A DNA stretch of 64,000 nucleotides from NCBI GenBank assembly GCA_026387175.1, contig JAPLME010000007.1:64487-128486 (forward strand). The letters are read 5' to 3'. The notes under the pieces were generated by a model, which was not told the DNA's origin, did no database searches, and saw nothing but the letters and a program-made list of their open reading frames with translations. Of this stretch, positions 16,284-49,221 are shown piece by piece (the first letter of the stretch is position 1; each line of letters opens with the position of its first letter). This DNA comes from Candidatus Omnitrophota bacterium (GTDB lineage Bacteria; Omnitrophota; Gorgyraeia; 2-01-FULL-45-10). The position numbers were made by a program, and so were the translations under genes.

Positions 16284-17228
16284 TTAAGCGTCCTTTGCGC
16301 CGATAGGGATGGTGAAATAAAAGGTAGCGCCGCGATCAGGATTATTCTTTACGTCCAGCCGGCCGCCATGAGCCTCAATGATGGAGCGGCTGATAGACAG
16401 TCCCATACCCAAGCCATCCGGCTTGCTCGTAAAAAATCGGGTGAAGAGCTTAGATATATTTTGTGCGGGGATTCCGCATCCGGAATCCTTTACCTCCACG
16501 ATAATCATGCCGGGATCTTTACGCGACGCACGAATCGATATTTCACGCTTACCTCGGCTGCTTTCAATGGCATCGAAACTGTTGCTTATGAGATTCAGGA
16601 GGACCTGTTGCAGCTGTACCCGGTCGCCAAGAACAAGCGGAAGATCGCCCTCCAACTCAATTTTTAATAAAATGTTCCTTACGGTAGCATCGGTTGCAAG
16701 AAGCGCGACGGTCTCGTCAACGAGGAAATTAATATCCAGAGGTTTCATTTCGGGCGCGGTCTTCTCTAACAGCGCACGTAATCTATGGATAACAGCCGTC
16801 GCCCGCTGGCTATCATTAATGATGTACTGAAGAGTCTCCTGTATCTTAGGCTCCCTGCCGGAGAGTATACGTTGGGCAGCTTGAGCGTACGAAAGAATAG
16901 CCGTAAGAGGCTGACTGATCTCGTGGGCCAAGGACGAGACAAACTCCGCAAGCTTTCCCACTCTGGTAACATGCAAAAGCTCCTCGCGCTGTTTAATGAT
17001 CTCCAGATCCTTTTTCCGTATTAAGTTAGCGTCTGTGTGGATCCGCTTTTCCGACTTTATCCGTTCCTTTGTTCCATTCCTCAGCTGTCCATTTTTAATC
17101 TTGATCTTATCGGCTTGCCGTAGGACCAACCCCTTAAGACGCACACGCTCTCCGCTTCGGGTTCTATTTTCCGACAATGGTCTTTTCTGCGGTTTTCGCT
17201 CGAGCTCAGGTTGTTTTTTATTCATCAT
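16284..17228 (-). CDS. Sensor histidine kinase (HisKA + HATPase_c) with a basic coiled-coil N-terminus and no recognisable sensor domain
   Basis: H-box SLAHEISQPLTAI. N/G-box LISNSFDAI...GLGMGLSISRSIIEAHGG. Directly adjacent to the FixJ-like regulator (16283/16284). Confidence 0.8.
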   Translation of the reverse strand: MMNKKQPELERKPQKRPLSENRTRSGERVRLKGLVLRQADKIKIKNGQLRNGTKERIKSEKRIHTDANLIRKKDLEIIKQREELLHVTRVGKLAEFVSSLAHEISQPLTAILSYAQAAQRILSGREPKIQETLQYIINDSQRATAVIHRLRALLEKTAPEMKPLDINFLVDETVALLATDATVRNILLKIELEGDLPLVLGDRVQLQQVLLNLISNSFDAIESSRGKREISIRASRKDPGMIIVEVKDSGCGIPAQNISKLFTRFFTSKPDGLGMGLSISRSIIEAHGGRLDVKNNPDRGATFYFTIPIGAKDA

Positions 17229-18663
17229 TTTTATTTATGGTTGTTTGCTTATACAGGTATTTAATTATAGCCCGGGAAGCTTTTTTTGCCATGCCCATGG
17301 CCTCGATGACCGTGCCTTCGCCGCCGACGATATCGCCTCCGGCATATACTTTTTTTATTGAGGTCCCCATAGTTTCTTTATCCACTATCACATCCGAGTA
17401 TTTATCTATGGCGAGCGCGGGCGTTGCGCGCGTCAGCACCTGGTTCGCCATCAGGCCTATAGCGATGACGGCCATGTCGCAATTTATCTCATAATCGCTG
17501 CCGGGGATAGCGATGGGCCTTCTTCTGCCGGAGCTATCCGGCTCACCCAGTTTGCATTTCAGACAGCGCAGTTTTCTCACAAAGCTTTTATCGTCGCCGG
17601 TAAATTCTTCGGGCGAGGACAGGAACCCGAATTTTACGCCTTCCTCTTTAGCGTGTTCTATCTCGATCCTTCTTGCCGGCATCTCGGCTTCTGTGCGCCG
17701 GTATAGTATGGTGGTATCGCCCGTCATGCCCATTATCTTCTGCATCCTGAGAGCTGCCCTTGCAGCGTCCATAGCGGTATTTCCGCCGCCGATCACCACG
17801 ACAGATTTGCCTATATTTACCGGAGTGTGAAACTCGGGAAATTTAAATGCCGACATAAGATTGATTCTAGTCAGGAATTCATTGGCCGAATAGACGTTGC
17901 AGAGATTTTCTCCCTTTATTCCTAGGAAAGTCGGGACCCCGGCGCCGAGGCCGAGAAATACGGCATCGTAGCCTTCCGTCAAAAGCTCGTCCAACCCTTT
18001 GGCTTTGCCTATGATGTAATTCGGCACGATCTCGACCCCCAGCTTCTTAAGGGAGTCCAGCTCGAAATCGAGAATATCGCGCGGCAGCCTGAACGGCGGT
18101 ATGCCATAGCGCAAAACCCCGCCGGATACGTGGAGCGCCTCGAAGACAGTTACCTTTATACCCTCCCTCGCAAGCTCGCCTGCGCAAGCTACGCCCGCGG
18201 GGCCGGAACCGACGATCGCTACCTTATATCTTGATAATTCTCCACCCTTTTTAAGCCCAACCTCGAGGTCATTCTCCTTACCGTAATCACCGGCGAACCG
18301 CTCCAGCAGATGTATGTTGATCGCCTGTTCCGAAGCAAATGAAGATCCCTTTTTAGTGAAGACGCAAGTCTTCTCGCACTGATATTCCGCGGGACAAACC
18401 CTGCCGCAGATCGACGGGAAATCGTTCTTCTCCCGTATCGTGAAATAGGCGCCCGTATAGTCTTTTTGTGTTATCTGGTATATGAATTTCTTTATATCAA
18501 TATTGACCGGGCATCCCTCGATACAGGTGGGATTTTTACATTGGATGCACCTGGCGGCTTCTTCGAGAGCTTCTTTTTCGGTATAACCCAATACGACTTC
18601 GTCGAAAGAGACGGATCTCTCATTGGCTTTACGCTCGCGGACCTTTACGGGATCTTTCTTCAT
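17218..18663 (-). CDS. GltD-family FAD/NAD(P)-dependent iron-sulfur flavoprotein, NfnB/SudA-like large subunit
   Basis: N-terminal Fe-S Cys clusters (CIQCKNPTCIEGCP...CGRVCP). Dinucleotide-binding motifs VAIVGSGPAGVACAG and VVVIGGGNTAMDAA. The likely start is internal (MKKDP..., ~18663), because the ORF-track start overlaps the upstream gene by 137 nt. Confidence 0.65.
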   Translation of the reverse strand: MKKDPVKVRERKANERSVSFDEVVLGYTEKEALEEAARCIQCKNPTCIEGCPVNIDIKKFIYQITQKDYTGAYFTIREKNDFPSICGRVCPAEYQCEKTCVFTKKGSSFASEQAINIHLLERFAGDYGKENDLEVGLKKGGELSRYKVAIVGSGPAGVACAGELAREGIKVTVFEALHVSGGVLRYGIPPFRLPRDILDFELDSLKKLGVEIVPNYIIGKAKGLDELLTEGYDAVFLGLGAGVPTFLGIKGENLCNVYSANEFLTRINLMSAFKFPEFHTPVNIGKSVVVIGGGNTAMDAARAALRMQKIMGMTGDTTILYRRTEAEMPARRIEIEHAKEEGVKFGFLSSPEEFTGDDKSFVRKLRCLKCKLGEPDSSGRRRPIAIPGSDYEINCDMAVIAIGLMANQVLTRATPALAIDKYSDVIVDKETMGTSIKKVYAGGDIVGGEGTVIEAMGMAKKASRAIIKYLYKQTTINKNDE

Positions 18664-18667
18664 AGGA

Positions 18668-19495
18668 TCACAGTTTGCCCAGTTTGCAGATATGCTTCTC
18701 TTTATCTTCATATATTTTGCTGCGATTAATAAGCTCGTCCCAATCCACCTGATGGGCGTCGAATTCAGGGCCGTCCACACAGCTGAATAGTATCTTGCCT
18801 CCAATGGTCACTCTGCAGCATCCGCACATACCTGTCGCGTCCAGCATAACGGCATTAAGGGATACTATCGTTTTCACTTTATATTTAGCGGTAACGGAGG
18901 CCGAACGTTTCATCATCGGAATCGGACCTACCGAATAGACAAGATCATATTTCTGTTTCTGAAGAACCTCATCGAGGATGTCGGTAGTGAAGCCTTTGCG
19001 GCCATAGGAGCCGTCATCCGTTGCCACAAGTAAGTCGTCGGATACTGCCTTAAGCGCATTTTCCAGTATCAAAAGGTTCTTCGTCCTGGCGCCCAGTATG
19101 ACGGTTATGTGATTTCCGGCGGCTTTCAATGCCTTGGCGACCGGGTATATCTCCGCGATGCCGACTCCTCCTCCGACAAGTATCACTTTCCCGTAATTTT
19201 TTATTTCAGTGGCGTGTCCGAGAGGCCCTACCAGAGCATACAGCGAATCGCCGGCACTCATCTCTCCAAGCAGTTTCGTTGTAAATCCCAGCTGCTGGAA
19301 TATAAGCGTTATGCTTCCGATATCTTTATCCGTATCGACTATGGTCAGGGGCGTCCTCTCCCCTTTATCGCTGACCATAAGGGCGATAAATTGTCCGGGT
19401 TTCGTTTTTTTGGCGATATCGGGCGAAAGCACCTCGATCTTCGTGATCTTTACGCCGGCGGCCTCGGCGAGTGTGAGCTTTTTTAGTATCTTCAT
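18668..19495 (-). CDS. PyrK/NfnA/SudB-like FAD-binding ferredoxin-reductase-type small subunit with a C-terminal 2Fe-2S Cys cluster
   Basis: An FAD-binding FR-type fold (GQFIALMV...RTPLTI, GPLG, ILVGGGVGIAEIYP) and a C-terminal CGCCRV...C motif. The gene order, small subunit then GltD-like subunit, matches nfnAB/sudBA. Confidence 0.65.
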   Translation of the reverse strand: MKILKKLTLAEAAGVKITKIEVLSPDIAKKTKPGQFIALMVSDKGERTPLTIVDTDKDIGSITLIFQQLGFTTKLLGEMSAGDSLYALVGPLGHATEIKNYGKVILVGGGVGIAEIYPVAKALKAAGNHITVILGARTKNLLILENALKAVSDDLLVATDDGSYGRKGFTTDILDEVLQKQKYDLVYSVGPIPMMKRSASVTAKYKVKTIVSLNAVMLDATGMCGCCRVTIGGKILFSCVDGPEFDAHQVDWDELINRSKIYEDKEKHICKLGKL

Positions 19496-26477: not shown

Positions 26478-27002
26478 ATTTTTCGGCCTCTCAGTCCGGC
26501 GTTTACTTTCGGGCAATGCTTCCGCTTGCCGCTCGCTCGGAATAGGCTTCCTCGCTCGCTGTTGATAAAATTTCGATGATGAAGCCTGTACCGCCTATAG
26601 GTATCGAAATTTTATAAAGTCGCTTCAGCATCGCCCGAAAGTTCCGCCATCTGACTATTAGCCGAAAAATTTACTGGAAGGATGAGTAGAGAGTGAGATT
26701 GGGACAGTGAGCGGAGACGAAAATATCGCAGCAGGCAGAGGTTCTTACCGGCTGACGCACCTCATGGCTTTATGAAGCGGCGAATTGAATTTTTTCGCCA
26801 GAGTATGACATGACAGTGGGTGCGCAAGGCCGCCTAGCAAGAGAATAACTTTACGTTGAGCGAATATGAAGGTGCGTGAACCACTACACATATTCGCGAT
26901 ACGTAAACCGCAGCGCACGGCGAAAATAATTCATCGCCGCGAATAAAGACATGAGGTACGGCAGGCCCCGTAAAAACATACTGCGTAACGAGGATATTTT
27001 CG

Positions 27003-28244
27003 CTATAGCGAGGGGTTGAAGTAGCCCATTCTGAGGTGGGGAAATTCTTTGCGTAGTGAGTCGATTACAGTTTTTATACCCAGTAGTTCTGAGCTCTTCG
27101 GCCATGCTTCAAGCTCTTCGAAATACCGCATCGGGTCATAATTGAGGTTGCGCCACTGGACCATATCTATCTTGTATCTGGAAGCCAGGTTTCCGAAGGC
27201 CATAAATTCATCTTTTGTATCGGTGAAACCCGGCATCGTTAAATAGTTAATAGAGACGAATGCTTTCTTCTCTTTCACTATTTTTATAGACTCCATTACG
27301 TCCTTAAGCTCGTACCCCCTCGGCCTGTAATATTTTGCGTAATAGGCTTCTCTCGCGCTATTTAAGCTGATCCGGACGCTATCGAGGCCTGCGTCCAATA
27401 ATCTGGCGAGCGCTTCGGGTCTCGAGCCATTGGAGTTCATATGTATGGTGCCGCCTTCAGTGTTTTTCCGGATGAGCATTATCGATTTCTCTATGAGCTT
27501 ATCCTGAAGAAGCGGCTCTCCCTCGCACCCTTGCCCGAAACTCACTATGGGCCGCTTTACGTTTTCGATATGAAACAATGCTATCTGGCTGACTTCTTCA
27601 GCTGTCGGAACAAATTTTATTCTCGGCTGCGATGCAGGACATTTTTTGTCCGGCTGGAATGATATACACCCTGTGCACGAGGCGTTACAGGATGGAGATG
27701 TTGGCAGTGGCGCTTCATATCTGCCTAAGAAAAAATTCTGCGCATTAGGGCACCCGTAAATGAGAGCGCAGGCCTTAAGATGCTCTATGAGCCTGTTTTT
27801 AGGGAAGAGCTTCGCTAATTTTACAATCCCCTTTCGTACAAGCGCCATATCTATATAGCGGCAATCATGCCGCCTGTCTTTGTCTATATGGATAGCAGCG
27901 GCATATAGTTCGTTTTTATACATACAAGCCGCGGCATATGCAAATAATGGGAGCTGTTTAGGATTGCCAATCGGGGTATAGGCGGCCGAGTAGGTTGCGG
28001 TATATCCGCTCGCCAGGAAAACCGCAACCGCAAACGCTCCTTCTATAACTATAAACCTGCCTGTTGCGGCATCGTAACCTATAGCGGACCTTGATGGCAG
28101 AATGAAGAGCCTGGACGCCGGGGGCAGTTTTATGAGATCGAGGCATTCTAACCTGAATATGAGTCCGCCTTTCATACCTGCCGCTTTCAGGTGTGTGTCA
28201 AAAGAGATATTCCCTTTTATGTCCGATACGAGCAGTCTAGGCAT
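27003..28244 (-). CDS. Radical SAM domain protein with an uncharacterised ~190-aa N-terminal domain
   Basis: CxxxCxxC motif CNASCTGC, followed by a glycine-rich SAM-binding region (SFGQGCEGEPLL). The N-terminal domain is not recognised. Confidence 0.55.
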   Translation of the reverse strand: MPRLLVSDIKGNISFDTHLKAAGMKGGLIFRLECLDLIKLPPASRLFILPSRSAIGYDAATGRFIVIEGAFAVAVFLASGYTATYSAAYTPIGNPKQLPLFAYAAACMYKNELYAAAIHIDKDRRHDCRYIDMALVRKGIVKLAKLFPKNRLIEHLKACALIYGCPNAQNFFLGRYEAPLPTSPSCNASCTGCISFQPDKKCPASQPRIKFVPTAEEVSQIALFHIENVKRPIVSFGQGCEGEPLLQDKLIEKSIMLIRKNTEGGTIHMNSNGSRPEALARLLDAGLDSVRISLNSAREAYYAKYYRPRGYELKDVMESIKIVKEKKAFVSINYLTMPGFTDTKDEFMAFGNLASRYKIDMVQWRNLNYDPMRYFEELEAWPKSSELLGIKTVIDSLRKEFPHLRMGYFNPSL

Positions 28245-28245
28245 A

Positions 28246-30018
28246 TCAGCTATAGAATTCCTTAATAATGTTCATCTTGCCGAGTGACTTGAGTGCCTCG
28301 ATAACATATCTTTTATTGCCGGGATTCTTGAATTGTATGAGCGCGCGCTGGAGCTTCTTCTCGCGAAGGTTTTTCGCCACATATACGTCCTGCCGGGTAA
28401 ATGGGTCTTTTCCGGTGTAGAACATTGCTCCTGATGCGGTCATCGGAAGCGGAATAAAATCCTGGATCTGTTCCGGATAGACATGCATCTTTTTTAATTC
28501 AAGCGAAAGATTCAGGGAATCTTCCAGTCTGGCTCCGGGATGCCCTACTATGATATAATTCACGAGAAATTGTTTCTTATTAAGTTTTTTGTTAACAGCA
28601 TCGAAGCGCTGGACGAAATGTTCATATACGCTAAAGCGCGGCTTTCGCATAAGGTCGAGCACATGCGCCTGGCCGTGCTCGGGCGCGACTTTCAACTGCC
28701 CGCTGACATGGTGAGCGCACAGCTCTCTCAGGTATTCGTCGGATTCGTTATCGTTCAGCAGATCATATCGGACGCCGCTCCCGACAAATATATGTTTGAC
28801 GCGCTCGATCGAGCCTGCGTGTTTCCAGAGTTCTATCATCTTAGAATAGCCGAGTTTAAGGTTCTTGCATTTTGCCGGGAAAAGGCATCTGCGGTCCTTG
28901 CAGGCGCCTTTATTTTTCCATAGATCGCAATGCGCCTCATAAAGATTTGCGGTCGCTCCTCCTATGTCGGTGATAGTGCCGTTAAAATCGGGCTGAGATG
29001 CCAGGGTTTTTATTTCTTTTAGTATGGATTCAGCGCTTCGGCTCTGGATGATCCTGCCCTGATGGGCGTAGAGAGAACAGAAGCTGCACTCTCCGGGGCA
29101 CCCCCTGTGCGATATGATCGAATATTTTACCGTTTCGAAACCCGGCACTCCGCCAGCCTTCTTATAACTGGGATGCGGCGATCTTGCGAACGGCAGTTTG
29201 TATATTCTGTCCATCTCTTTTGTGGATAACGGTTTCGCGCATGGGAGCTGGATCACGAAGCGAGCGGCATGGCGCTGTATTATCGTGCGGCCCCGCAGAG
29301 GATCCTGCTCCATATATGCGAGCCGGAAGGCTTCATTGAATTTATCTTTACTGTAGCTTGCCTCTTCAAATGAAGGTATCGATACGGCATCGTTAAAATT
29401 ATCTATCGAATTCCTGACGATGACCGTTCCGCGTATGTCGTTCAGATCTTTTATCCTTTCACCATCCCGCAGGCGTCTCGCTATTTCGGCTATCTGTACT
29501 TCGCCCATCCCGTATACAAGGATATCTGCCTTGGAATCAAGCAGTATCGACCTGCGGAGGGTATCCGACCAGTAGTCATAGTGAGCGAGCCTGCGCATGC
29601 TTGCCTCGATACCGCCGATGACGATCGGTATATTACCAAAAGCCTGGCGTATCTTGTTCGTGTATATAAGCGTTGCGCGGTCAGGACGCAGATCTGTCTT
29701 ACCTCCGGGCGAATACTCATCCTCGCTTCTAAATTTCTTGTTAGCGGTATAATTGGCGATCATCGAGTCCAGGTTGCCCGCAGTGACGCCAAAAAATAAT
29801 CGCGGCCGGCCCATCCTCTTTAGGGAGTCTGGGTTCTTCAGGTCGGGCTGGGCTATTATACCGACCTTATATCCTTCAGATTCAAGGACCCTTCCGATGA
29901 CGGCCCCTCCATAAGACGGGTGATCGACGTAGGCATCACCGGTCACTATTATTATGTCGAGATAGCTCCACCCTAGCGCGGACATCTCCTCTTTCGTCAT
30001 CGGTAAAAAATCACTCAT
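28246..30018 (-). CDS. YgiQ-family (UPF0313) radical SAM protein
   Basis: A YgiQ-type N-terminal domain (IIIVTGDAYVDHPSYGGAVIGRVLE..GYKVGIIAQPD) and a radical SAM Cys motif (HRGCPGECSFCS). Confidence 0.7.
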   Translation of the reverse strand: MSDFLPMTKEEMSALGWSYLDIIIVTGDAYVDHPSYGGAVIGRVLESEGYKVGIIAQPDLKNPDSLKRMGRPRLFFGVTAGNLDSMIANYTANKKFRSEDEYSPGGKTDLRPDRATLIYTNKIRQAFGNIPIVIGGIEASMRRLAHYDYWSDTLRRSILLDSKADILVYGMGEVQIAEIARRLRDGERIKDLNDIRGTVIVRNSIDNFNDAVSIPSFEEASYSKDKFNEAFRLAYMEQDPLRGRTIIQRHAARFVIQLPCAKPLSTKEMDRIYKLPFARSPHPSYKKAGGVPGFETVKYSIISHRGCPGECSFCSLYAHQGRIIQSRSAESILKEIKTLASQPDFNGTITDIGGATANLYEAHCDLWKNKGACKDRRCLFPAKCKNLKLGYSKMIELWKHAGSIERVKHIFVGSGVRYDLLNDNESDEYLRELCAHHVSGQLKVAPEHGQAHVLDLMRKPRFSVYEHFVQRFDAVNKKLNKKQFLVNYIIVGHPGARLEDSLNLSLELKKMHVYPEQIQDFIPLPMTASGAMFYTGKDPFTRQDVYVAKNLREKKLQRALIQFKNPGNKRYVIEALKSLGKMNIIKEFYS

Positions 30019-30661
30019 ATGTAATAGCCATTATTTTTTTATAGACTTCATTAAAGTCTTTGGTCTTACAGGTATAATCAGCTATTCTTTTCAGCTTAGC
30101 GCTTGAGCAGTTGAAGGCGATAAAGAAACCGGAATTTCTGGCAAGCGGTATATCGCCTTCGGTATCACCCACGCTTATTACCTCGTGCGGTTTCACCTTG
30201 AACTTTTTGTAAATTTCCGCCAGCGCCGTATGTTTCGCGCCGTGTTCGAGGTTTATCTTCACGCCGCCGGTCAGTAAACCGTTCCGTGAGGAGAGTAGGT
30301 TTGATATGGCATAATCGAATTTCAGCTCAGATCTTACCCGTTCCGTCATGAATTGCAGGCCGGTGGATACAGCGGCTAACTTGAATCCCTGTCTTTTTAA
30401 TTTAGTTATCGAGCGCGCAGCGTTCTTCGAGTAACGCACGCTTCTGAATATCGAGCGTATCTTTCTGATACGCATTCCCTTCCAATGGGCGGCGTCAAGT
30501 TCGCAGAATTTTCTGTAGGATATCTTACCGGCGAAGAAGTCTTCCTGATAACGGAACGCGCGATTTGACCAGAGGCGGAGTTTCTCATGGATATAGCGCC
30601 ACGAGCTGATGTGACGGGTTATGGTGCCGTCGATATCGAATATTATCAGCTTATACTTCAT
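30011..30661 (-). CDS. HAD-superfamily hydrolase, subfamily IB (phosphoserine-phosphatase-like)
   Basis: Motif I LIIFDIDGTIT and motif IV VISVGDTEGDIP. Confidence 0.7.
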   Translation of the reverse strand: MKYKLIIFDIDGTITRHISSWRYIHEKLRLWSNRAFRYQEDFFAGKISYRKFCELDAAHWKGMRIRKIRSIFRSVRYSKNAARSITKLKRQGFKLAAVSTGLQFMTERVRSELKFDYAISNLLSSRNGLLTGGVKINLEHGAKHTALAEIYKKFKVKPHEVISVGDTEGDIPLARNSGFFIAFNCSSAKLKRIADYTCKTKDFNEVYKKIMAITYE

Positions 30662-31099
30662 CTATAATATTTTTAGCAGGGAGAGCCCGGTCCCGGGGTC
30701 GATCTCTTTAGTCGCCCTTACCCCTTTTAGTTCAAATACCACCGCCTCTATAACCAGGAATACTTTGGATTTTTTGCGGACACATCCGGTGAGGGTCTTG
30801 AGCTTTTTGCCCATCGAGGCATGCAGATGTATTTGCGGGCCCTTTGAGTTAGTATATATGGTGCCGATACCCATAACCTCCCAGGCATCTTTAAATCCGA
30901 CCCAGTTAGGCTCAGGTGGTATAACGGGTTTTTTGGGCCCGGTCACGAGATCGCCTTTTTTCAGGGCGCCTATAAATACGAGCGTAGCGGCCCTTATCTT
31001 CTCTTTTCTGGCGAGCTTATCAAGCTCGTCTAACAGCACATCGTCGTCGTTGAATTTTATCAAAAATATTCTGCCTATGGAGCCTTTAGTATATTTCAT
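30662..31099 (-). CDS. PPC/DUF296 domain protein (predicted PD1-like DNA-binding fold)
   Basis: A 145-aa protein with the DUF296-like pattern (GRIFLIKFNDDDVLLDELDKLARKEKIRAATLVFIGAL). It overlaps the atpC stop by 4 nt. Confidence 0.5.
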   Translation of the reverse strand: MKYTKGSIGRIFLIKFNDDDVLLDELDKLARKEKIRAATLVFIGALKKGDLVTGPKKPVIPPEPNWVGFKDAWEVMGIGTIYTNSKGPQIHLHASMGKKLKTLTGCVRKKSKVFLVIEAVVFELKGVRATKEIDPGTGLSLLKIL

Positions 31100-31362
31100 G
31101 TCCTGTGCTCCTGGTCTAACAATATAGTAGCTCTATTCTTTATGATCTCGAGAAATCCGTTGGTCTTCGAGTCTAAAGCCGTTGTCTTTCCGGAGGCGTC
31201 TTTCAGAGTTATCTTTCCGGGGAGGAGAGTTGTCATCAGGGGGGCATGGTCGGCCAGTATTCCCAGATAGCCGATCTCTCCCGGAGCGACCAGCGACTGC
31301 AGGTCGCCCTCGAATATCTTTTTATCGCTCGATAGGATAGTCAGGTGAAATAACTTTGGCAC
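31096..31362 (-). CDS. atpC: F1 ATP synthase epsilon subunit, short form with the beta-sandwich domain only
   Basis: LTILSSDKKIFEGDLQSLVAPGEIGYLGILADHAPLMTTLLPGKITL is the epsilon N-terminal domain. At only 88 aa it lacks the C-terminal helical hairpin. Confidence 0.75.
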   Translation of the reverse strand: MPKLFHLTILSSDKKIFEGDLQSLVAPGEIGYLGILADHAPLMTTLLPGKITLKDASGKTTALDSKTNGFLEIIKNRATILLDQEHRT

Positions 31363-31367
31363 GATGA

Positions 31368-33633
<2,266 letters not shown>

Positions 33634-33637
<4 letters not shown>

Positions 33638-35151
33638 TTAATGGTATTCCTGAATCCGGTTTTGAATGATTCTATGGCTTTATTAAGTTTTTCCTTCAGC
33701 GGATCATCAAGAACCCTCTTCGCTTCGATCTCGCGCTCTATATCCGGATGAGTCGAATCGATATATTTATAGAATTCAATCTCAAATTTTCGGATCACAG
33801 ATATCTTCAAATCGTCCAGAAATCCATTTGTCGCGGCATAAATAATCATTACCTGTTTCCCCAGCCCGAGCGTATCGTATTGCCCCTGTTTCAATATCTC
33901 GACCATTCGCTCTCCGCGATGCAGCTGTGCCTGCGTGGTCTTATCGAGCTCCGACCCAAACTGGGAGAAAGCGATAAGCTCCCTGTACTGCGCCAGGTCC
34001 AGCCTCAACCTTCCGGCTACCTGCTTCATGGCCTTCTCCTGGGCGTTACCGCCTACCCGCGAGACCGATAAGCCCACATTGATCGCAGGGCGTACGCCTG
34101 CATAGAACAGGTCGGTTTCGAGATATATCTGGCCGTCGGTGATAGATATGACGTTCGTCGGTATGTAACTCGTTATGTCTCCCGCTTGCGTCTCTATTAT
34201 CGGAAGCGCGGTGATGGACCCTCCCCCGAGCTTGTCGCTCAGCTTTGCCGCGCGCTCCAGTAGCCTCGAATGCAGATAGAAGATATCTCCCGGGTATGCT
34301 TCCCTGCCCGGAGGCCTTCTCAATAGGAGCGAAAGCTGTCTGTAGGCCTGCGCGTGTTTTGAGAGATCGTCATATATGACCAGTACGTCTTTCCCTAAAT
34401 GCATGAACTCTTCCGCCATGGCGCAGGCTGAATAAGGGGCCAGATACTGCAGTGAGGCCGATGCGCGCGATGAAGCGCTTACGATAATCGTATGCTCCAT
34501 TGCGCCATACTGCTTAAGCGTCTCCGAGACGGATACTATGCTCGACATCTTCTGCCCGATAGCTACATAGATGCAGTAAACGCCTTTACCCTTCTGGTTG
34601 ATTATCGTATCGATCGCGATAGCTGTCTTGCCTGTCTGGCGGTCCGCGATTATGAGTTCACGTTGTCCGCGGCCTATGGGGATCATTGAATCGATAGCTT
34701 TTATGCCTGTATAGAGCGGCTGGGTGACAGGCTGCCGGTCTATGACGCCCGGCGACCTTGCCTCGACGGGCCGGTGTCTATTCGTGGCGATGGGTCCTTT
34801 GCCGTCTCTCGGATGTCCGAGTGCGCTAACGACCCTTCCTAAAAGGGCTTCTCCTACCGGCACCTGAGCGATCTTCCCCGTCCGCTTTACGATCTCGCCT
34901 TCCCGTATCTCTTTTTCATCTCCCAGTATGACTATGCCTACGCTATCCTCCTCCAGATTGAAGACTATCCCTTCGGTGCCGTCTTTAAACGTGACAAGCT
35001 CGCCCACCATGACATCATCTAACCCGTACACGAGGGCTATCCCGTCACCGACCTGCAGGACCGTTCCGACCGATTCGACCCTGAGCCTGGTTCGGTATTT
35101 CTCTAATTCTTTCTTAATTATGGCTGTTACTTCATGCGGCTGCAGATGCAT
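33634..35151 (-). CDS. atpA: F1 ATP synthase alpha subunit
   Basis: Walker [10 protein letters not shown] and the typical alpha C-terminus. Confidence 0.95.
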
Positions 35152-35152
35152 A

Positions 35153-35701
35153 TCATACCACCTTCAGTACGTCGAGCTTTTTTTTCATATCTTCCAGGCG
35201 TTTTTTGACGGACCCGTCTATTATTAAATTTCCTATTTGCGCATACGCGCCGCCGACCAGGTCTGCGTCAAGCTGAATATATAGATGGATCTTCCTGCTT
35301 ATGCGCTGCTCAAGAGCGTTTTTTATCCTATGGAGCGTATTCGTCTCAAGCGGATAGCTTGTCTTAAGGAGCGTGTCGGCTTCAGCGCCGTGAGCGTAAT
35401 GTATGCGCGTATATTCCGCTATGTCGACGAATAGATCGATGCGTTTGGCTTCGATAAGCAGTTTGAGAAAGTGTATCAGCTCATCATTAAATTCATTTTT
35501 AAATACAGCGTTGACGACTTCATCCTTTTCGGAGTTTGTTATCGCGGGACTCTCGAGAAACTCTTTAAGGTTCGGGTTGTCGCGCATAATGCGCTTTGCC
35601 CTATGCAGCTCATCCAGGCCCTGCACGAAACCGATCGTCTCTTTAGCGTATGCTAAAAATGCGTTTGCGTACCTCTTTGACACTATCTCTTCCCTGATCA
35701 C
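35153..35701 (-). CDS. atpH: F1 ATP synthase delta (OSCP) subunit
   Basis: A 182-aa protein in the canonical position between b and alpha. It has OSCP-like N-terminal helices. Confidence 0.75.
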
Positions 35702-36192
35702 TTTTTCTCGATCCCCTTAAGAAAATCTTCGACCAGCCGCCTGTCGCTTTCCTCGGAAAGCTTCTCCTGAATGACCTTCTCGGCCACCCGTATGGTCAGG
35801 TCCACGATGTCATCCTTAAGCTCTTCTCTGGCTTTCGCGACTTCGTCCTTGATATTAGATTTTGCCTTATCAATGATCTTTTCCGAGTCCAGCTCAGCCT
35901 TGGCTTTCAATTCTTCGGCAAGTACGCGGCCCTGGTCCACCGCCTCCCGTATCTTCGCCTTAGCTTCATCGTCTATATCGGCAAGCTTCTTTTCGTACTC
36001 TCCTTTAATCCGCGAAAGAGTCTCTTTGGCCTCTTCGATCCTCTTAAACTCGGACGAGACAGTCTCCCGCCTCTTGTCGATAATGCCGAGGAACTTCTTC
36101 CACAGAAAGCTCCGCATTATTACAAGCAGTATCAGAAAGCATATTATCTGGGCGACCAGCTCATTTGTGTTGAGAAGTTTCAGCAGGCCCAT
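35698..36192 (-). CDS. atpF: Fo ATP synthase b subunit
   Basis: A single N-terminal TM helix followed by a long charged coiled coil (KAKIREAVDQGRVLAEELKAKAE...). Confidence 0.8.
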   Translation of the reverse strand: MGLLKLLNTNELVAQIICFLILLVIMRSFLWKKFLGIIDKRRETVSSEFKRIEEAKETLSRIKGEYEKKLADIDDEAKAKIREAVDQGRVLAEELKAKAELDSEKIIDKAKSNIKDEVAKAREELKDDIVDLTIRVAEKVIQEKLSEESDRRLVEDFLKGIEKK

Positions 36193-36203
36193 TCAGTATT
36201 TCC

Positions 36204-36434
36204 TTAAATTTTCCCTGCCAGGCTAAAAGCGAAGACAAGCGCATAGATCGTTATGGCCTCAATGAACGCGCAGCCGGTAGCCATATTTATCAATATCTTC
36301 ATCGACGCTTCCGGTTGCCTGCCCGTCGCCTCCATCGCTGCCGCTACCGCCCTGCCCAGCGCTATAGCCGAGCCGAAAGCGGCTATCCCCAGACCTATGG
36401 GAAGGCCGAACGATAACATCGTCTTATAATCCAT
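36204..36434 (-). CDS. atpE: Fo ATP synthase c subunit (proteolipid)
   Basis: A 76-aa helical hairpin with the RQP loop motif and a conserved carboxylate in helix 2 (AFIEAITIY). GGAGG RBS 6-10 nt upstream. Confidence 0.9.
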   Translation of the reverse strand: MDYKTMLSFGLPIGLGIAAFGSAIALGRAVAAAMEATGRQPEASMKILINMATGCAFIEAITIYALVFAFSLAGKI

Positions 36435-36447
36435 CTCCTACCTCCTT

Positions 36448-36549
36448 GTTTATTCAGCCGTACTGTATGCCAAGTGCCGATATCCCTGATATCGGCCTAG
36501 TTTATTCAGCCTTATTGTAGGCTAAGTGCCGATATCTCTGATATCGGCC
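36448..36549. repeat. Tandem pair of a ~50-bp double-hairpin repeat unit (GATATC-palindrome element) between atpB and atpE
   Basis: Unit A spans 36448-36497 and unit B spans 36498-36549. Each unit contains a 5-bp-stem hairpin AGCCt-N6-AGGCT and a perfect palindrome GCCGATATC-N3-GATATCGGC. The same family recurs at 56023-56126. Confidence 0.85.
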
Positions 36550-37295
36550 TTTTCTTCGCGGGTTAATGCTAACGCAAAATATATTGTCGTCAAAAGACAG
36601 AATACCGAGGCCTGCACGACCGCGGCAAGGGCGGCAATGAACATATTGAATAATAAGAGCGGTACCCCTTTAAGGCCGAAGCCCGCGAGCACCGCGAGCA
36701 GCATGTCATCGCCCCATATATTGGACCGGAGCCTGAGCGATAGGCTTATGGGCCTTACAAGTTCTGAGATGATATGCAGAAATAGCATCAGTAATGGTAT
36801 GACCACCGATGCCGCCAGTATTCCCCTGGGTTTCCCCATAAGATGGTCGACGAATCCCAATAACCCGAGCTCCTTCAATGTGGTGTACTGCAGATAGACG
36901 AATACGCATAACGCGAGCGCAAGAGTTACGGACCAGTTCGATGTGGGCGCTTTCATGAAAGGCACGAGGCTTATGAGGTTCATGGATAGTATGTATATGA
37001 AGAGAGTCCCTATGAAAGGCGTAAAACGCCTTCCCTTGGGCCCGAGTATGCCGCATATGAATGAGTCAAATCCTCCTACGAACATTTCGAACGCCGACTG
37101 CAGCCTTCCGGGGATCATCCTGAGGCGCCGGGACGCGACTATAGTAATCAGCGAAATGGCGGCTATAACTATCAAAGAGAAGATGACATTCTCGTAATGG
37201 GACAGGTTTCTCAGTACCGGGATATCTTTAAAATGCTCCGAGATAATAGTTACGATATTCGGAAGCTCGTGGCTTGCTACGCTCGCTTCGGCCAT
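36522..37295 (-). CDS. atpB: Fo ATP synthase a subunit
   Basis: Multi-TM protein with the conserved Arg in LSLRLRSNIWGDD (the a-subunit R210 region). The last 8 codons and the stop (ADIRDIGT*) are encoded by repeat unit B. Confidence 0.85.
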   Translation of the reverse strand: MAEASVASHELPNIVTIISEHFKDIPVLRNLSHYENVIFSLIVIAAISLITIVASRRLRMIPGRLQSAFEMFVGGFDSFICGILGPKGRRFTPFIGTLFIYILSMNLISLVPFMKAPTSNWSVTLALALCVFVYLQYTTLKELGLLGFVDHLMGKPRGILAASVVIPLLMLFLHIISELVRPISLSLRLRSNIWGDDMLLAVLAGFGLKGVPLLLFNMFIAALAAVVQASVFCLLTTIYFALALTREEKADIRDIGT

Positions 37296-47775: not shown

Positions 47776-49221
47776 TTATATTACCGGCAGATTGGTCGAG
47801 CCCATGAGATATTTATCGATGCAGTGGGCGGCTCTGCGGCCTTCGGAGATGGCCCAGACTACGAGCGACTGTCCCCGCCTGGTGTCCCCGGCCGCGAATA
47901 CGTTCTTTAGCGATGTCATGTAATCCGGGCCGGTCTTGATATTTCCGCGGCCGTCTAACTCTACGCCAAGCTCCTTAAGAAGCCCCCGATGCTCCGGATG
48001 AACGAAGCCGATCGCAAGTATTACGAGATCCGCGTCTATTTCAAACCCGCTCCCGGGGGTCTCCTTCATCAGCGGACAGCCTTTAGTGTCTTTTTCAGAA
48101 AAGTCTAATTTTGCGCAAGCAACTTTCTTTACCTGCCCGGAATCGCCAATAAACTTTTTGGTCGACACTGCCCAGCTGCGAAGACCGCCTTCTTCATGGC
48201 TGGTCGAGGTCTTTAATATCGCAGGATATTTTGGCCACGGAAAGTCCGGCGTCCGGCAATCGGCGGGTTTGGGCAGGACCTCTATCTGCATCACGCATGA
48301 AGCACCCTGCCTGTGAGCTGTGCCGACGCAGTCCGCGCCGGTATCGCCGCCTCCGACCACAAGGACTTTCTTACCTTCCGCATTCAGTGAATTATCAGAT
48401 GGCTTCTCTTTAGAGGAGGTTCTTTTATTGGACCGTATCAGGTAATCCATCGCGAAGTGTATTCCCGCGAGTCCCCTCCCCTCTATCTTAAGATCCCGAG
48501 GAACCCGGCTTCCGAGAGAGAGGCATATCGCGTCGAAATCCTTAATAAGTTTTGAGGTCGGAAACGTTACGCCGACATCGGTATCCATTAGGAATTTTAT
48601 CCCCTCTTTCTTTAATATGCCGATGCGCCGATCGAGCAGGGATTTAGCTAATTTAAAATCCGGTATACCATAACGCAGGATACCCCCCGCCTTATCGTAC
48701 TTTTCAAATATCGTGACAGTATGGCCGGCCTTGTTTAACTGATCGGCGGCGGCAAGCCCTGCCGGGCCTGAGCCTACGACGGCCACTGCTTTTCGAGTGC
48801 GTTTTTTGGGAGGGTTCGCTTTTATCAGGCCCGCCTTGAAAGCATTTTCGATAATGGAAAGCTCGTTCTCCCGTATCGTTACGGGTTCATCATTTATGCC
48901 GAGCACGCAGGCATATTCGCACATCGCCGGACATATACGCCCGGTGAACTCGGGAAAGTTATTGGTCGCGTGCAGGAGTTCGATGGCTTTTTTCCATTTT
49001 CCGCGGAACATCAAGTCGTTCCATTCCGGGATATAATTTCCAACGGGACAGCCCCAATGGCAGAATGGCGTGCCGCAGTCCATGCATCGGGATGCCTGCT
49101 CTTTTGATAATCCTTCAGGCCTTGGGATGGAGACCTCTTTATAGTCCGCTATGCGCTCGCATACGGGCCGGTATATGCCGGCTTGGCGCCGGACCTTAAG
49201 GAAGCCCTTTGGATCACCCAT
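47776..49221 (-). CDS. gltD: Glutamate synthase (NADPH) small subunit
   Basis: RCMDCGTPFCHWGCP Fe-S motif, plus the dinucleotide folds VAVVGSGPAGLAAA and VLVVGGGDTGADC. Confidence 0.85.
   Translation of the reverse strand: MGDPKGFLKVRRQAGIYRPVCERIADYKEVSIPRPEGLSKEQASRCMDCGTPFCHWGCPVGNYIPEWNDLMFRGKWKKAIELLHATNNFPEFTGRICPAMCEYACVLGINDEPVTIRENELSIIENAFKAGLIKANPPKKRTRKAVAVVGSGPAGLAAADQLNKAGHTVTIFEKYDKAGGILRYGIPDFKLAKSLLDRRIGILKKEGIKFLMDTDVGVTFPTSKLIKDFDAICLSLGSRVPRDLKIEGRGLAGIHFAMDYLIRSNKRTSSKEKPSDNSLNAEGKKVLVVGGGDTGADCVGTAHRQGASCVMQIEVLPKPADCRTPDFPWPKYPAILKTSTSHEEGGLRSWAVSTKKFIGDSGQVKKVACAKLDFSEKDTKGCPLMKETPGSGFEIDADLVILAIGFVHPEHRGLLKELGVELDGRGNIKTGPDYMTSLKNVFAAGDTRRGQSLVVWAISEGRRAAHCIDKYLMGSTNLPVI

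What the first reader, a model, noticed from the sequence alone, without database searches (positions are those of the whole stretch)
27003..31099. Four uncharacterised genes translationally coupled to the 3' end of the ATP synthase operon
Immediately after atpC (epsilon) come four genes:
- a PPC/DUF296 protein at 30662-31099, which overlaps the atpC stop by 4 nt;
- a HAD-IB phosphatase at 30011-30661;
- a YgiQ-family radical SAM protein at 28246-30018;
- a second radical SAM protein at 27003-28244, with an unknown ~190-aa N-terminal domain and CNASCTGC.

They follow one another with gaps or overlaps of at most 8 nt. YgiQ has no established function, and housing a two-radical-SAM + phosphatase + PPC module inside an ATP synthase/hydrogenase transcription unit is unusual. 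It could be a cofactor-maturation or modification pathway tied to the bioenergetic complex. For example, it could modify a hydrogenase or ATP synthase subunit or a lipid.
Basis: partly seen in the sequence, partly recalled or inferred. Interest (0 to 1): 0.6.

Follow-up and report, generated by a model that had tools for sequence, protein, structure and literature searches.

The report
Four passenger genes behind ATP synthase
Four real, well-conserved genes of unknown function sit directly after the ATP synthase genes in one group of Omnitrophota bacteria, but comparison with relatives suggests this is inherited gene order in a tightly packed genome, not a system that serves the ATP synthase.

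Summary
atpC is followed on the minus strand by PPC/DUF296, a HAD-IB phosphatase, a YgiQ-family radical SAM and a second radical SAM, with junctions of -4, 0, -8 and +1 nt.

The proposed link to the ATP synthase/hydrogenase is not supported:
- Tight spacing is genome-wide (median same-strand gap 2 nt).
- The atp linkage occurs only in one Omnitrophota clade, which is collinear with the window well beyond the four genes.
- One close relative keeps HAD-YgiQ-rSAM2 with no atp or hydrogenase genes nearby.
- Only 1 of 80 diverse YgiQ loci has atp genes nearby. E. coli ygiQ lies beside ftsP/plsC.

The block looks composite:
- PPC→YgiQ recurs as a two-gene unit in a second, distant lineage with unrelated flanks. 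HAD phosphatases are also enriched next to YgiQ. This suggests a YgiQ-centred sub-module.
- The second radical SAM is a stand-alone gene with unrelated neighbours in four other phyla. Its confidently modelled N-terminal domain has no Pfam, NCBIfam or PDB fold match.

Weak evidence points to translation-related housekeeping for YgiQ. Biochemical functions remain unknown. Interest is modest.

The parts
31096..31362 (-). atpC, F1 epsilon subunit. It is 88 aa and has the N-terminal beta-sandwich only. It is the last ATP synthase gene, and its stop codon overlaps the PPC start codon (ATGA).
   Evidence: PF02823 68.9 bits. TIGR01216 matches positions 2-80 of 130. Sequence and junction. Relatives are also 88-89 aa.
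30662..31099 (-). PPC/DUF296 (PF03479) protein, 145 aa. It is the most conserved of the four genes and belongs to a YgiQ-linked PPC subfamily.
   Evidence: PF03479 67.5 bits. The top 120 homologues are all Omnitrophota at 76-94% identity. It is 35-42% identical, without gaps, to the PPC proteins that precede YgiQ in a distant clade. It scores only 25 bits against the solved PH0802 structure 2dt4.
30011..30661 (-). HAD-IB phosphatase, 216 aa, with a phosphoserine-phosphatase-like fold. It is probably not a phosphoserine phosphatase.
   Evidence: TIGR01488 is above its cutoff; TIGR01491 and TIGR00338 are below theirs. The DIDGT and GDTEGD motifs are present. It aligns end to end with M. jannaschii PSP 1f5s at E = 1e-19, but PSP Glu20 and Arg56 align to Ile18 and Asp56 (the role of those two residues is from my own knowledge).
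28246..30018 (-). YgiQ/UPF0313-family radical SAM protein, 590 aa. It has a CX3CX2C motif at C307/C311/C314 and four more invariant Cys residues (C364, C373, C378, C384).
   Evidence: TIGR03904 834.9 bits; PF08497, PF04055 and PF11842. The invariant Cys residues come from an alignment that includes E. coli YgiQ at 45% identity.
27003..28244 (-). Second radical SAM protein (rSAM2), 413 aa. It has a family-specific N-terminal domain (residues 1-175: a beta-rich part followed by three helices) and a compact radical SAM core with C186/C190/C193.
   Evidence: PF04055 at residues 181-348 only. AF2 pLDDT 94.9 for the full protein and 94.2 for the N-domain alone. The core matches NifB, PFL-AE, LipA and MoaA. 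The best PDB match to the N-domain has E = 0.5 and TM <= 0.21. The N-domain is found in 323 clusters at 50% identity and sits at the N-terminus in almost every full-length hit.
26478..27002 (.). 525-nt non-coding spacer between the end of rSAM2 and the convergent Ski2-like helicase gene. It marks the 3' end of the co-directional gene run.
   Evidence: Sequence. No Rfam or tRNA hit. Poorly conserved against L006 and L007. In L008, L016, L020 and L031 the equivalent gap is about 0-5 nt.
31368..37295 (-). [quoted passage not shown]
   Evidence: Pfam hits. The c subunit lies at 36204-36434.

Best explanation
The four genes are functional housekeeping-type genes that form the 3' tail of a very long co-directional gene run (nadE, glnA3, gltBD, mbh/mrp, hycI, atp, then these four) in a compact Omnitrophota genome. 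They are probably co-transcribed with atp and translationally coupled to it. That position is inherited gene order in one clade, not a functional tie to the ATP synthase or hydrogenase.

The block is composite.

1. PPC, HAD and YgiQ form a YgiQ-centred sub-module. YgiQ is a radical SAM enzyme with the canonical cluster and four further invariant cysteines, which I infer bind an auxiliary Fe-S cluster. I infer that the PPC protein is its partner or specificity subunit, and that the HAD-IB phosphatase acts on a phosphorylated substrate or product. The target is most likely a constitutively needed cellular component, possibly part of the translation apparatus. That last step is a weak inference.

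2. rSAM2 is an independent single-gene radical SAM enzyme. It has a PFL-activase/MoaA-like compact core and its own N-terminal domain, which I infer recognises the substrate. It became adjacent to YgiQ once, within this Omnitrophota group.

Shown: gene identities, spacing, the distribution of the linkages, and purifying selection. Inferred: co-transcription, the PPC-YgiQ partnership, and all the chemistry.
For: **Spacing.** Tight spacing is genome-wide: median gap 2 nt, and 27 of 45 junctions are <=10 nt.

**The atp linkage is confined to one collinear clade.**
- The order hycI-atp-(PPC)-(HAD)-YgiQ-rSAM2-|helicase is kept in L006, L008, L015, L016, L018-L021, L028, L031 and L040.
- The downstream genes (DUF3786, PFK, rubrerythrin, HK) are collinear in the same loci.
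- PPC is missing in L019, L020 and L028, and HAD is missing in L021.
- L007 has nadE-glnA3-g37277-HAD-YgiQ-rSAM2 and lacks the roughly 26 kb of gltBD-mbh-hycI and atp-PPC present in the window.
- An NJ tree is consistent with one origin of the YgiQ-rSAM2 linkage.

**rSAM2 behaves as an independent gene.**
- It stands alone, with different neighbours, in KSB1, Kiritimatiellia, Verrucomicrobiota and Myxococcota.
- It is also unlinked to the other three genes in 10 of the 23 genome loci, nearly all Omnitrophota-type.

**YgiQ is rarely near atp.** Only 1 of 80 metagenomic loci has atp, HAD-IB and rSAM2 nearby. E. coli ygiQ lies beside ftsP, plsC and parC.

**PPC pairs with YgiQ.**
- PPC lies directly upstream of YgiQ in a second clade (L075, L097, L084, L095). 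YgiQ there is about 49% identical to the window's, the gaps run from -4 to 69 nt, and the flanks are unrelated.
- All 5 PPC genes among 795 neighbouring genes lie within two genes of YgiQ (Fisher p = 0.003).
- HAD genes: 7 adjacent, 1 near, 3 far (p = 6e-4).
- The PPC proteins of the two clades are 35-42% identical without gaps.

**The genes are under selection.** PPC and HAD are 70-86% identical across relatives, similar to atpA and atpD.

**Hints of a translation link.**
- E. coli ygiQ sits in a co-expression module made up of translation genes (PMC6412132).
- In gut-type loci, YgiQ neighbours include RsuA/RluB-type and RluD-type pseudouridine synthases, RsmF, and a RelA/SpoT-domain protein.
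Against: - The atp linkage spans considerable divergence (rSAM2 down to 57% identity), and PPC is as conserved as atpD. A clade-specific functional recruitment therefore cannot be excluded.
- In L007, PPC disappears together with atp instead of staying with YgiQ.
- The PPC-YgiQ pairing rests on only two deep lineages out of about 35, and the loci are not phylogenetically independent, so the Fisher p-values are optimistic.
- In the gut lineage, the HAD-IA neighbours may belong with the pseudouridine synthases and not with YgiQ.
- The translation link is indirect: one co-expression module and synteny in one lineage.
- No transcript data were available, so co-transcription is inferred only from spacing and the absence of predicted terminators.
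- L030 has a fragment 65% identical to the YgiQ C-terminus right after rSAM2. This hints at a second YgiQ-rSAM2 juxtaposition and slightly weakens the claim that rSAM2 is independent.
Confidence: 0.6

Rival explanations
1. One reading: the four genes form a cofactor-maturation or post-translational/lipid-modification pathway that serves the adjacent ATP synthase or membrane-bound hydrogenase, and that is why they are co-expressed with it.
For: - There is an ATGA overlap with atpC.
- The linkage to hycI-atp is conserved in at least 9 species-level Omnitrophota genomes.
- Epsilon is truncated to 88 aa throughout the clade, which could call for a compensating factor.
- PPC is as conserved as atpD.
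Against: - Collinearity extends well past the module, so the adjacency carries no specific signal.
- L007 keeps HAD-YgiQ-rSAM2 without atp or mbh nearby.
- PPC or HAD is individually missing in atp-linked loci.
- There is no atp or hydrogenase linkage in 79 of 80 YgiQ loci, in E. coli, or in any rSAM2 locus from other phyla.
- A dedicated hydrogenase maturation protease, HycI, is already present.
- None of the four genes matches a known Hyp, Hyd or Atp assembly family.
Confidence: 0.1
2. All four genes form one self-contained biosynthetic pathway (two radical SAM steps, a dephosphorylation and a PPC scaffold) for a small molecule, cofactor or lipid. The pathway is unrelated to ATP synthase and merely sits next to it.
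For: - HAD-YgiQ-rSAM2 stay together in L007 after the atp linkage is lost.
- The order PPC-HAD-YgiQ-rSAM2 is invariant wherever the genes are present.
- A YgiQ C-terminal remnant lies next to rSAM2, with a HAD gene upstream, in L030.
Against: - rSAM2 occurs alone in at least four other phyla and in many Omnitrophota.
- 79 of 80 YgiQ loci lack rSAM2, and the PPC-YgiQ pairs in the second clade end after YgiQ.
- The HAD in L030 belongs to a different subfamily, HAD-IA.
- The tree suggests a single juxtaposition event.
Confidence: 0.15
3. Only the PPC protein is an accessory or regulatory subunit of this clade's F-ATPase, for example compensating for the missing epsilon C-terminal domain. HAD, YgiQ and rSAM2 are unrelated passengers.
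For: - PPC overlaps the atpC stop codon.
- PPC is lost together with the atp block in L007.
- PPC is very highly conserved.
- Epsilon lacks its C-terminal helices.
Against: - PPC is absent from the atp-linked loci L019, L020 and L028 even though epsilon is equally short there.
- Orthologous PPC proteins pair with YgiQ, not atp, in a distant clade.
- All PPC hits in the survey lie beside YgiQ.
Confidence: 0.07

Closest known systems
YgiQ / UPF0313 radical SAM family (TIGR03904; E. coli b4469)
   Same: Full-length match at 834.9 bits, with the same PF08497 + PF04055 + DUF3362 architecture. It is 45% identical to E. coli YgiQ and shares the CX3CX2C motif and four additional invariant Cys residues.
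   Different: It is shorter than the E. coli protein (590 against 739 aa) and matches only the first half of DUF3362. Here it is preceded by PPC and HAD-IB and sits behind atp, whereas in E. coli it sits beside ftsP/plsC. The family has no established function. The 'YgiQ' cited as a cobalamin-dependent methylase in PMC8950095 is a Shewanella P-methylase; I judge from my own knowledge that it is a different protein sharing only the COG1032 name, because the original paper could not be read.
PPC/DUF296 domain proteins (PF03479; Pyrococcus PH0802, PDB 2dt4; plant AHL PPC domains)
   Same: Single-domain protein of about 145 aa that matches the full Pfam model.
   Different: It is only distantly related to the solved archaeal protein (25 bits). 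It belongs to a subfamily that recurs directly upstream of YgiQ. It is a stand-alone single-domain protein, whereas plant AHL proteins add an AT-hook. The library holds no functional study of a bacterial member.
HAD-IB phosphoserine phosphatase (M. jannaschii PSP, PDB 1f5s; TIGR00338 / TIGR01491)
   Same: Same size and fold class, an end-to-end alignment at E = 1e-19, and intact catalytic motifs DxDGT and GDxxxD.
   Different: It scores below both PSP-type cutoffs. The residues aligned to PSP Glu20 and Arg56, which bind the serine moiety according to my own knowledge of the PSP structures, are Ile and Asp. A different substrate is therefore likely.
Compact-core radical SAM enzymes (PFL-activating enzyme 3c8f, NifB 6y1x, MoaA 1tv7, LipA, viperin)
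   Same: The rSAM2 core (residues about 180-413) superposes on these with Foldseek probability 1.0 and E of about 1e-8 to 1e-7. It carries the CX3CX2C motif and a GxGCEGEP-type SAM motif.
   Different: All the NCBIfam equivalog scores are far below their cutoffs; for example MoaA scores 37.8 against 284. The N-terminal 175-residue domain has no counterpart in any of these enzymes, and no Pfam, NCBIfam or PDB-fold match.

Membership tests
YgiQ / UPF0313 (TIGR03904) | Whole-protein score above the curated equivalog cutoff | tested here: met
   834.9 bits against a cutoff of 462.35, covering model positions 1-558 of 558.
YgiQ / UPF0313 (TIGR03904) | Architecture of Radical_SAM_N (PF08497), a radical SAM core with CX3CX2C, and DUF3362 | tested here: met
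   PF08497 445 bits, PF04055 36.8 bits, and PF11842 60.9 bits over model positions 1-75 of 151. C307/C311/C314 are invariant, including in E. coli.
PPC / DUF296 (PF03479) | Full-length match above the Pfam gathering score | tested here: met
   67.5 bits against a cutoff of 25, covering model positions 1-116 of 117.
HAD-IB phosphatase subfamily (TIGR01488) | Score above the subfamily cutoff, and HAD motifs I-IV | tested here: met
   85.2 bits against a cutoff of 45. DIDGT, an S/T motif (AVSTG) and GDTEGD are present in the sequence.
Phosphoserine phosphatase SerB / archaeal PSP-like (TIGR00338, TIGR01491) | Score above the equivalog cutoff, and conservation of the serine-binding Glu20 and Arg56 of M. 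jannaschii PSP | tested here: not met
   89.1 against 144.15 and 132.2 against 151.9. The aligned residues are Ile18 and Asp56. The role of Glu20 and Arg56 is from my own knowledge of the PSP structures.
Radical SAM superfamily (PF04055), for the protein at 27003-28244 | Radical SAM core domain with a CX3CX2C cluster motif | tested here: met
   PF04055 73.1 bits. C186-x3-C190-x2-C193 is invariant in 60 homologues. The core fold matches NifB, PFL-AE and MoaA.
Named radical SAM subfamilies (MoaA, NrdG/PflA activases, TYW1, W-cofactor maturase, TIGR04100), for 27003-28244 | Score above any curated equivalog cutoff | tested here: not met
   The best hit is MoaA at 37.8 bits against 284. All ten hits are far below their cutoffs.
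   The linkage occurs only in one collinear Omnitrophota clade. It is absent in L007, in 79 of 80 YgiQ loci, in E. coli, and in rSAM2 loci from four other phyla.
ATP synthase / hydrogenase accessory or maturation factor | Homology to known assembly or maturation families (AtpI, Hyp, HycI, HydEFG and similar) | tested here: not met
   No such family appears among the Pfam or NCBIfam hits of the four proteins. HydE and HydG appear only as generic radical SAM fold neighbours.
ATP synthase / hydrogenase accessory or maturation factor | Physical association with the complex, or modification of it | not testable with these tools
   This needs proteomics or biochemistry.
Single operon with atp (co-transcription) | A continuous transcript across atpC-PPC and on to 27003 | not testable with these tools
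   Only indirect evidence is available: overlapping or abutting genes, and no terminator-like site on the minus strand. No transcriptome was available.

The most novel reading that the evidence does not exclude
In this Omnitrophota clade, an ancient PPC-YgiQ radical SAM system, together with a HAD-IB phosphatase and a second radical SAM that has an uncatalogued N-terminal domain, has been recruited into the mbh-atp transcription unit. Its role would be to install a clade-specific modification on a subunit or lipid of the ATP synthase or membrane-bound hydrogenase, for example to compensate for the truncated epsilon subunit. My evidence makes this unlikely but cannot exclude a clade-restricted function.
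Probability: 0.07. Interest if true: 0.7.

Novelty: new member of a known kind. Interest (0 to 1): 0.3.

Why it matters
**For the original claim.** This is a cautionary result. In compact, largely co-directional genomes, overlapping start and stop codons and synteny among relatives do not by themselves indicate shared function.

**Two modest leads survive.**
- YgiQ/UPF0313 is a large radical SAM family that is present in E. coli and still has no known function. A recurrent, apparently orthologous PPC/DUF296 partner gene, together with the enrichment of HAD phosphatases next to YgiQ, gives enzymologists concrete co-expression partners to try.
- The second radical SAM defines a widespread single-gene family found in Omnitrophota, KSB1, Verrucomicrobiota, Kiritimatiellia and Myxococcota. 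Its confidently predicted N-terminal domain is absent from Pfam and NCBIfam and has no Foldseek match in the PDB. It is a candidate new domain family.

Tried and rejected
**Family and structure searches**
- Pfam and NCBIfam searches on the rSAM2 N-terminal domain found nothing.
- PDB sequence searches for rSAM2 and YgiQ returned only marginal or core-motif hits.
- Foldseek with full-length rSAM2 matched only generic radical SAM cores. With the N-domain alone there was no significant hit.

**Apparent gene fusions and linkages**
- The stand-alone 75-aa DUF3362 ORF after rSAM2 in L030 first looked like a domain-level link between rSAM2 and YgiQ. It is 65% identical to the last 57 residues of YgiQ, so it is more likely a gene remnant.
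- Representatives with the N-domain at an internal position looked like possible fusions. P0326 is a frameshift-ridden gene call that joins TIGR04282/TIGR04283 transferases to an rSAM2 homologue, so it shows adjacency and not a fusion. The others had no extra domains.

**Literature**
- Searches for YgiQ, UPF0313 and DUF296 found no functional study of either family. The top 'DUF296' hits appear to be DUF2961 papers picked up by the word-start match, which I did not verify by opening them; the rest are plant AHL papers.
- The 'YgiQ' methylase in PMC8950095 traces to a Shewanella P-methylase paper that I could not read.

**Other checks**
- The 525-nt spacer has no Rfam or tRNA hit and no convincing conservation.
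- The promoter and terminator scan gave counts at shuffle level, so it says nothing either way.
- My crude gene caller preferred a 168-aa plus-strand ORF (30621-31127) over PPC. I rejected it as an antisense shadow ORF, because the minus-strand frame carries the PF03479 match and conserved homologues.
- Searching with the PPC protein to reach other phyla returned only Omnitrophota proteins in the top 120.

Full report
**1. Observation**

The minus strand carries atpC (31096-31362), followed by ORFs at 30662-31099, 30011-30661, 28246-30018 and 27003-28244.

| Coordinates | Call | Key scores |
|---|---|---|
| 30662-31099 | PPC/DUF296 | PF03479, 67.5 bits |
| 30011-30661 | HAD-IB phosphatase | TIGR01488 above cutoff; TIGR01491 and TIGR00338 below cutoff |
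| 28246-30018 | YgiQ | TIGR03904 834.9 bits; PF08497 + PF04055 + DUF3362 |
| 27003-28244 | Second radical SAM (rSAM2) | PF04055 at residues 181-348 only; C186-NAS-C190-TG-C193 |

The first ~180 residues of rSAM2 match nothing.

The junctions are a 4-nt ATGA overlap with atpC, then 0, -8 and +1 nt. The window is identical to a Candidatus Omnitrophica MAG.

Upstream of the four genes, in transcription order, lie nadE, glnA type III, gltBD, a group-4 Mbh/Mrp-type [NiFe] hydrogenase, HycI, a small membrane ORF and atpBEFHAGDC. Downstream there is a 525-nt spacer and then a convergent Ski2-like helicase gene.

**2. Is the spacing special?**

It is not. A crude gene call of the whole window gives 45 same-strand junctions with a median gap of 2 nt. 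Of these, 27 are <=10 nt and 18 overlap or abut. Almost the entire 64 kb is co-directional. Promoter-like and terminator-like motifs across 26-38 kb occur at shuffle frequency, and none lies on the minus strand inside the four-gene block. Co-transcription with atp is therefore plausible, but the tight spacing carries no specific information.

**3. Is the atp linkage conserved, and does that mean anything?**

I scanned species-representative genomes with rSAM2 and obtained 23 loci, then mapped the window's proteins onto them.

- **atp-linked loci.** The order hycI-atpB..C-PPC-HAD-YgiQ-rSAM2-|helicase is kept in L006, L008, L015, L016 and L018. PPC is missing in L019, L020 and L028. HAD is missing in L021. 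The same arrangement appears in L031 and L032 and in the metagenomic locus L040.
- **Collinearity control.** The same loci are collinear with the window beyond the block as well: the helicase is followed by DUF3786, PFK, rubrerythrin and a histidine kinase, in the same order. The adjacency is what shared ancestry predicts.
- **L007.** rSAM2 here is 73% identical to the window's and is its sister in the tree. The locus reads nadE-glnA3-(homologue of the ORF that precedes atpB)-HAD-YgiQ-rSAM2-helicase. The gltBD-mbh-hycI block and the atpB..C-PPC block are both absent from that position.
- **L009.** It keeps only a GltD-like gene, rSAM2 and the convergent helicase.
- **L043.** It has YgiQ, then a HAD-IA gene, then the convergent helicase, with no rSAM2 or atp.
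- **Overall count.** Twelve of the 23 loci have YgiQ next to rSAM2, ten do not, and one cannot be scored.
- **Tree.** A rough NJ tree places the linked copies as a grade within one Omnitrophota group and the unlinked Omnitrophota copies as one derived clade. All copies from other phyla are unlinked. This is consistent with a single juxtaposition that was then inherited.

**4. Beyond Omnitrophota**

*rSAM2.* Homologues at 55-60% identity to one another, and 44% to the window, occur in KSB1, Kiritimatiellia, Verrucomicrobiota and Myxococcota. In each phylum the gene stands alone with different neighbours, and there is no YgiQ, HAD-IB, PPC or atp nearby.

*YgiQ.* A profile scan of metagenomes returned 80 loci at 46-63% identity, which fall into about 35 lineages at 70% identity. 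Only L040, the Omnitrophota type, has atp, HAD-IB and rSAM2. E. coli ygiQ lies beside ftsP, plsC and parC.

**5. What does recur**

*PPC.* It lies directly upstream of YgiQ in L075, L097, L084 and L095. These four loci form a second clade: their YgiQ proteins are 63-75% identical to one another and about 49% identical to the window's. The PPC-YgiQ gaps run from -4 to 69 nt, and the co-directional run ends after YgiQ in L075 and L097. Their flanks differ: LemA/DUF2207 and ManC/AsnB in one locus, CorA and LEA_2 in another. Only the pair is conserved.

The PPC proteins of the two clades align without gaps at 35-42% identity. The solved archaeal PPC scores only 25 bits. All five PPC genes among 795 non-YgiQ genes in the survey lie within two genes of YgiQ (Fisher p = 0.003).

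*HAD.* HAD phosphatases are also enriched next to YgiQ: 7 adjacent, 1 near and 3 far (p = 6e-4). They belong to two different subfamilies and occur partly within one gut-type lineage. The loci are not independent, so this is suggestive only.

*Selection.* Within Omnitrophota, PPC (72-86%) and HAD (69-84%) are about as conserved as atpA and atpD, and more conserved than YgiQ (62-76%) and rSAM2 (57-73%). All four genes are therefore under purifying selection.

**6. The individual proteins**

*YgiQ.* An alignment that includes E. coli YgiQ has the invariant C307/C311/C314 motif plus C364, C373, C378 and C384. I infer that the second set binds an auxiliary Fe-S cluster. No function is reported in the library:
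- The family is listed as uncharacterised (PMC9477430).
- E. coli ΔygiQ retains m6A2030 (PMC3936739).
- ygiQ sits in a co-expression module otherwise made up of translation genes (PMC6412132).

In the largest gut-type lineage, the genes near YgiQ include two pseudouridine synthases, RsmF and a RelA/SpoT-domain protein. Together these are weak hints of a role related to translation.

*HAD.* It aligns end to end with M. jannaschii phosphoserine phosphatase and has intact catalytic motifs. The residues aligned to Glu20 and Arg56 of that enzyme are Ile and Asp, and the PSP cutoffs are not reached. A different substrate is likely. The role of Glu20 and Arg56 is from my own knowledge of the PSP structures.

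*rSAM2.*
- The AlphaFold model is confident, with pLDDT 94.9.
- The core resembles NifB, PFL-activase, LipA and MoaA.
- The N-terminal 175 residues (about 120 beta-rich residues followed by three helices) model at pLDDT 94.2 on their own.
- That domain has no significant Foldseek match in the PDB: best E = 0.5, TM <= 0.21.
- An exhaustive search with the domain finds 323 clusters at 50% identity. In almost every full-length hit (about 405-450 aa) the domain sits at the N-terminus.
- Invariant residues include C159 and C165 in the motif 'CALxYGCPNAQNxF', and C240.

**7. Conclusion**

The best-supported reading has three parts.

- The atp linkage is inherited gene order in a compact genome.
- PPC, HAD and YgiQ form a genuine sub-module of unknown chemistry that is not specific to ATP synthase.
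- rSAM2 is an independent radical SAM family with an uncatalogued N-terminal domain.

I give it about 0.1.

Limits of this work:
- No transcript data were available.
- No whole-genome presence/absence profiles could be made.
- The lineage counts for the PPC and HAD associations are small.

Noticed in passing
window 31096-31362 (-): The F1 epsilon subunit is only 88 aa: it has the N-terminal beta-sandwich and lacks the C-terminal helical (regulatory) domain. Relatives have 88-89 aa versions too, so this is a trait of the clade.
   Followed up: partly
window 27003-59840 (-); L007 3111-11239: There is a long co-directional run: nadE, glnA3, gltB, gltD, Mrp/Mbh group-4 hydrogenase, hycI, a small membrane ORF, atp, then the four genes. 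In the close relative L007, glnA3 is followed directly by the small ORF and then HAD. About 26 kb (gltBD-mbh-hycI and atpB..C-PPC) is missing from that position. Whether those genes sit elsewhere in that genome is unknown.
   Followed up: partly
window 26478-27002: A 525-nt non-coding spacer separates rSAM2 from the convergent helicase gene. That is unusually long for this genome; the equivalent gap is about 0-5 nt in L008, L016, L020 and L031. It has no Rfam or tRNA hit and is poorly conserved against the ~410-435-nt spacers of L006 and L007.
   Followed up: partly
L030 8192-8419 (+): A 75-aa ORF immediately after an rSAM2 homologue is 65% identical to the last 57 residues of YgiQ (DUF3362). 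It is probably a remnant of a YgiQ gene in a different arrangement. An unrelated HAD-IA gene lies upstream.
   Followed up: partly
P0326 (a representative protein; no locus held): This is a frameshift-ridden gene call. It joins TIGR04282 and TIGR04283 ('arsenosugar biosynthesis' glycosyltransferase families, originally defined by association with a radical SAM enzyme) to a homologue of rSAM2. It implies that these genes are adjacent in one organism. It is a single instance and a possible functional lead for rSAM2.
   Followed up: partly
L011 4401-5639 (+); L035 7914-9155 (-): An HI0933-like flavoprotein lies next to or near the rSAM2 homologue in two otherwise unrelated loci, one Planctomycetota-labelled MAG and one Verrucomicrobiota. 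This could be coincidence.
   Followed up: no
L051, L057-L060, L066, L082, L087, L106 (gut and bioreactor YgiQ loci): In the largest YgiQ lineage of the survey, YgiQ sits in a conserved neighbourhood containing an S4-domain pseudouridine synthase, an RluD-type pseudouridine synthase, RsmF, a HAD-IA phosphatase, an SDR and a RelA/SpoT-domain protein. This fits the co-expression of E. coli ygiQ with translation genes.
   Followed up: partly
window 17218-19495 (-) and 47776-49221 (-): There are two GltD-like (Fer4_20 + Pyr_redox_2) paralogues. One is paired with a DHODB-type Fe-S/NAD-binding subunit, resembling NfnAB or SudAB. The other follows gltB.
   Followed up: no
window 36204-36434 (-): In the ATP synthase c subunit, the carboxylate Glu is followed by Ala (…FIEAITIY…) and helix 1 has no Gln at the expected position. 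By eye, and from my own knowledge of Na+-binding c subunits, this looks H+-type, even though the neighbouring hydrogenase is an Mrp-linked group-4 type. I did not test this further.
   Followed up: no
window 30621-31127 (+): A 168-aa ORF lies antisense to the PPC gene and is longer than PPC itself. I treat it as a shadow ORF, because the minus-strand frame carries the PF03479 match and the conserved homologues.
   Followed up: yes
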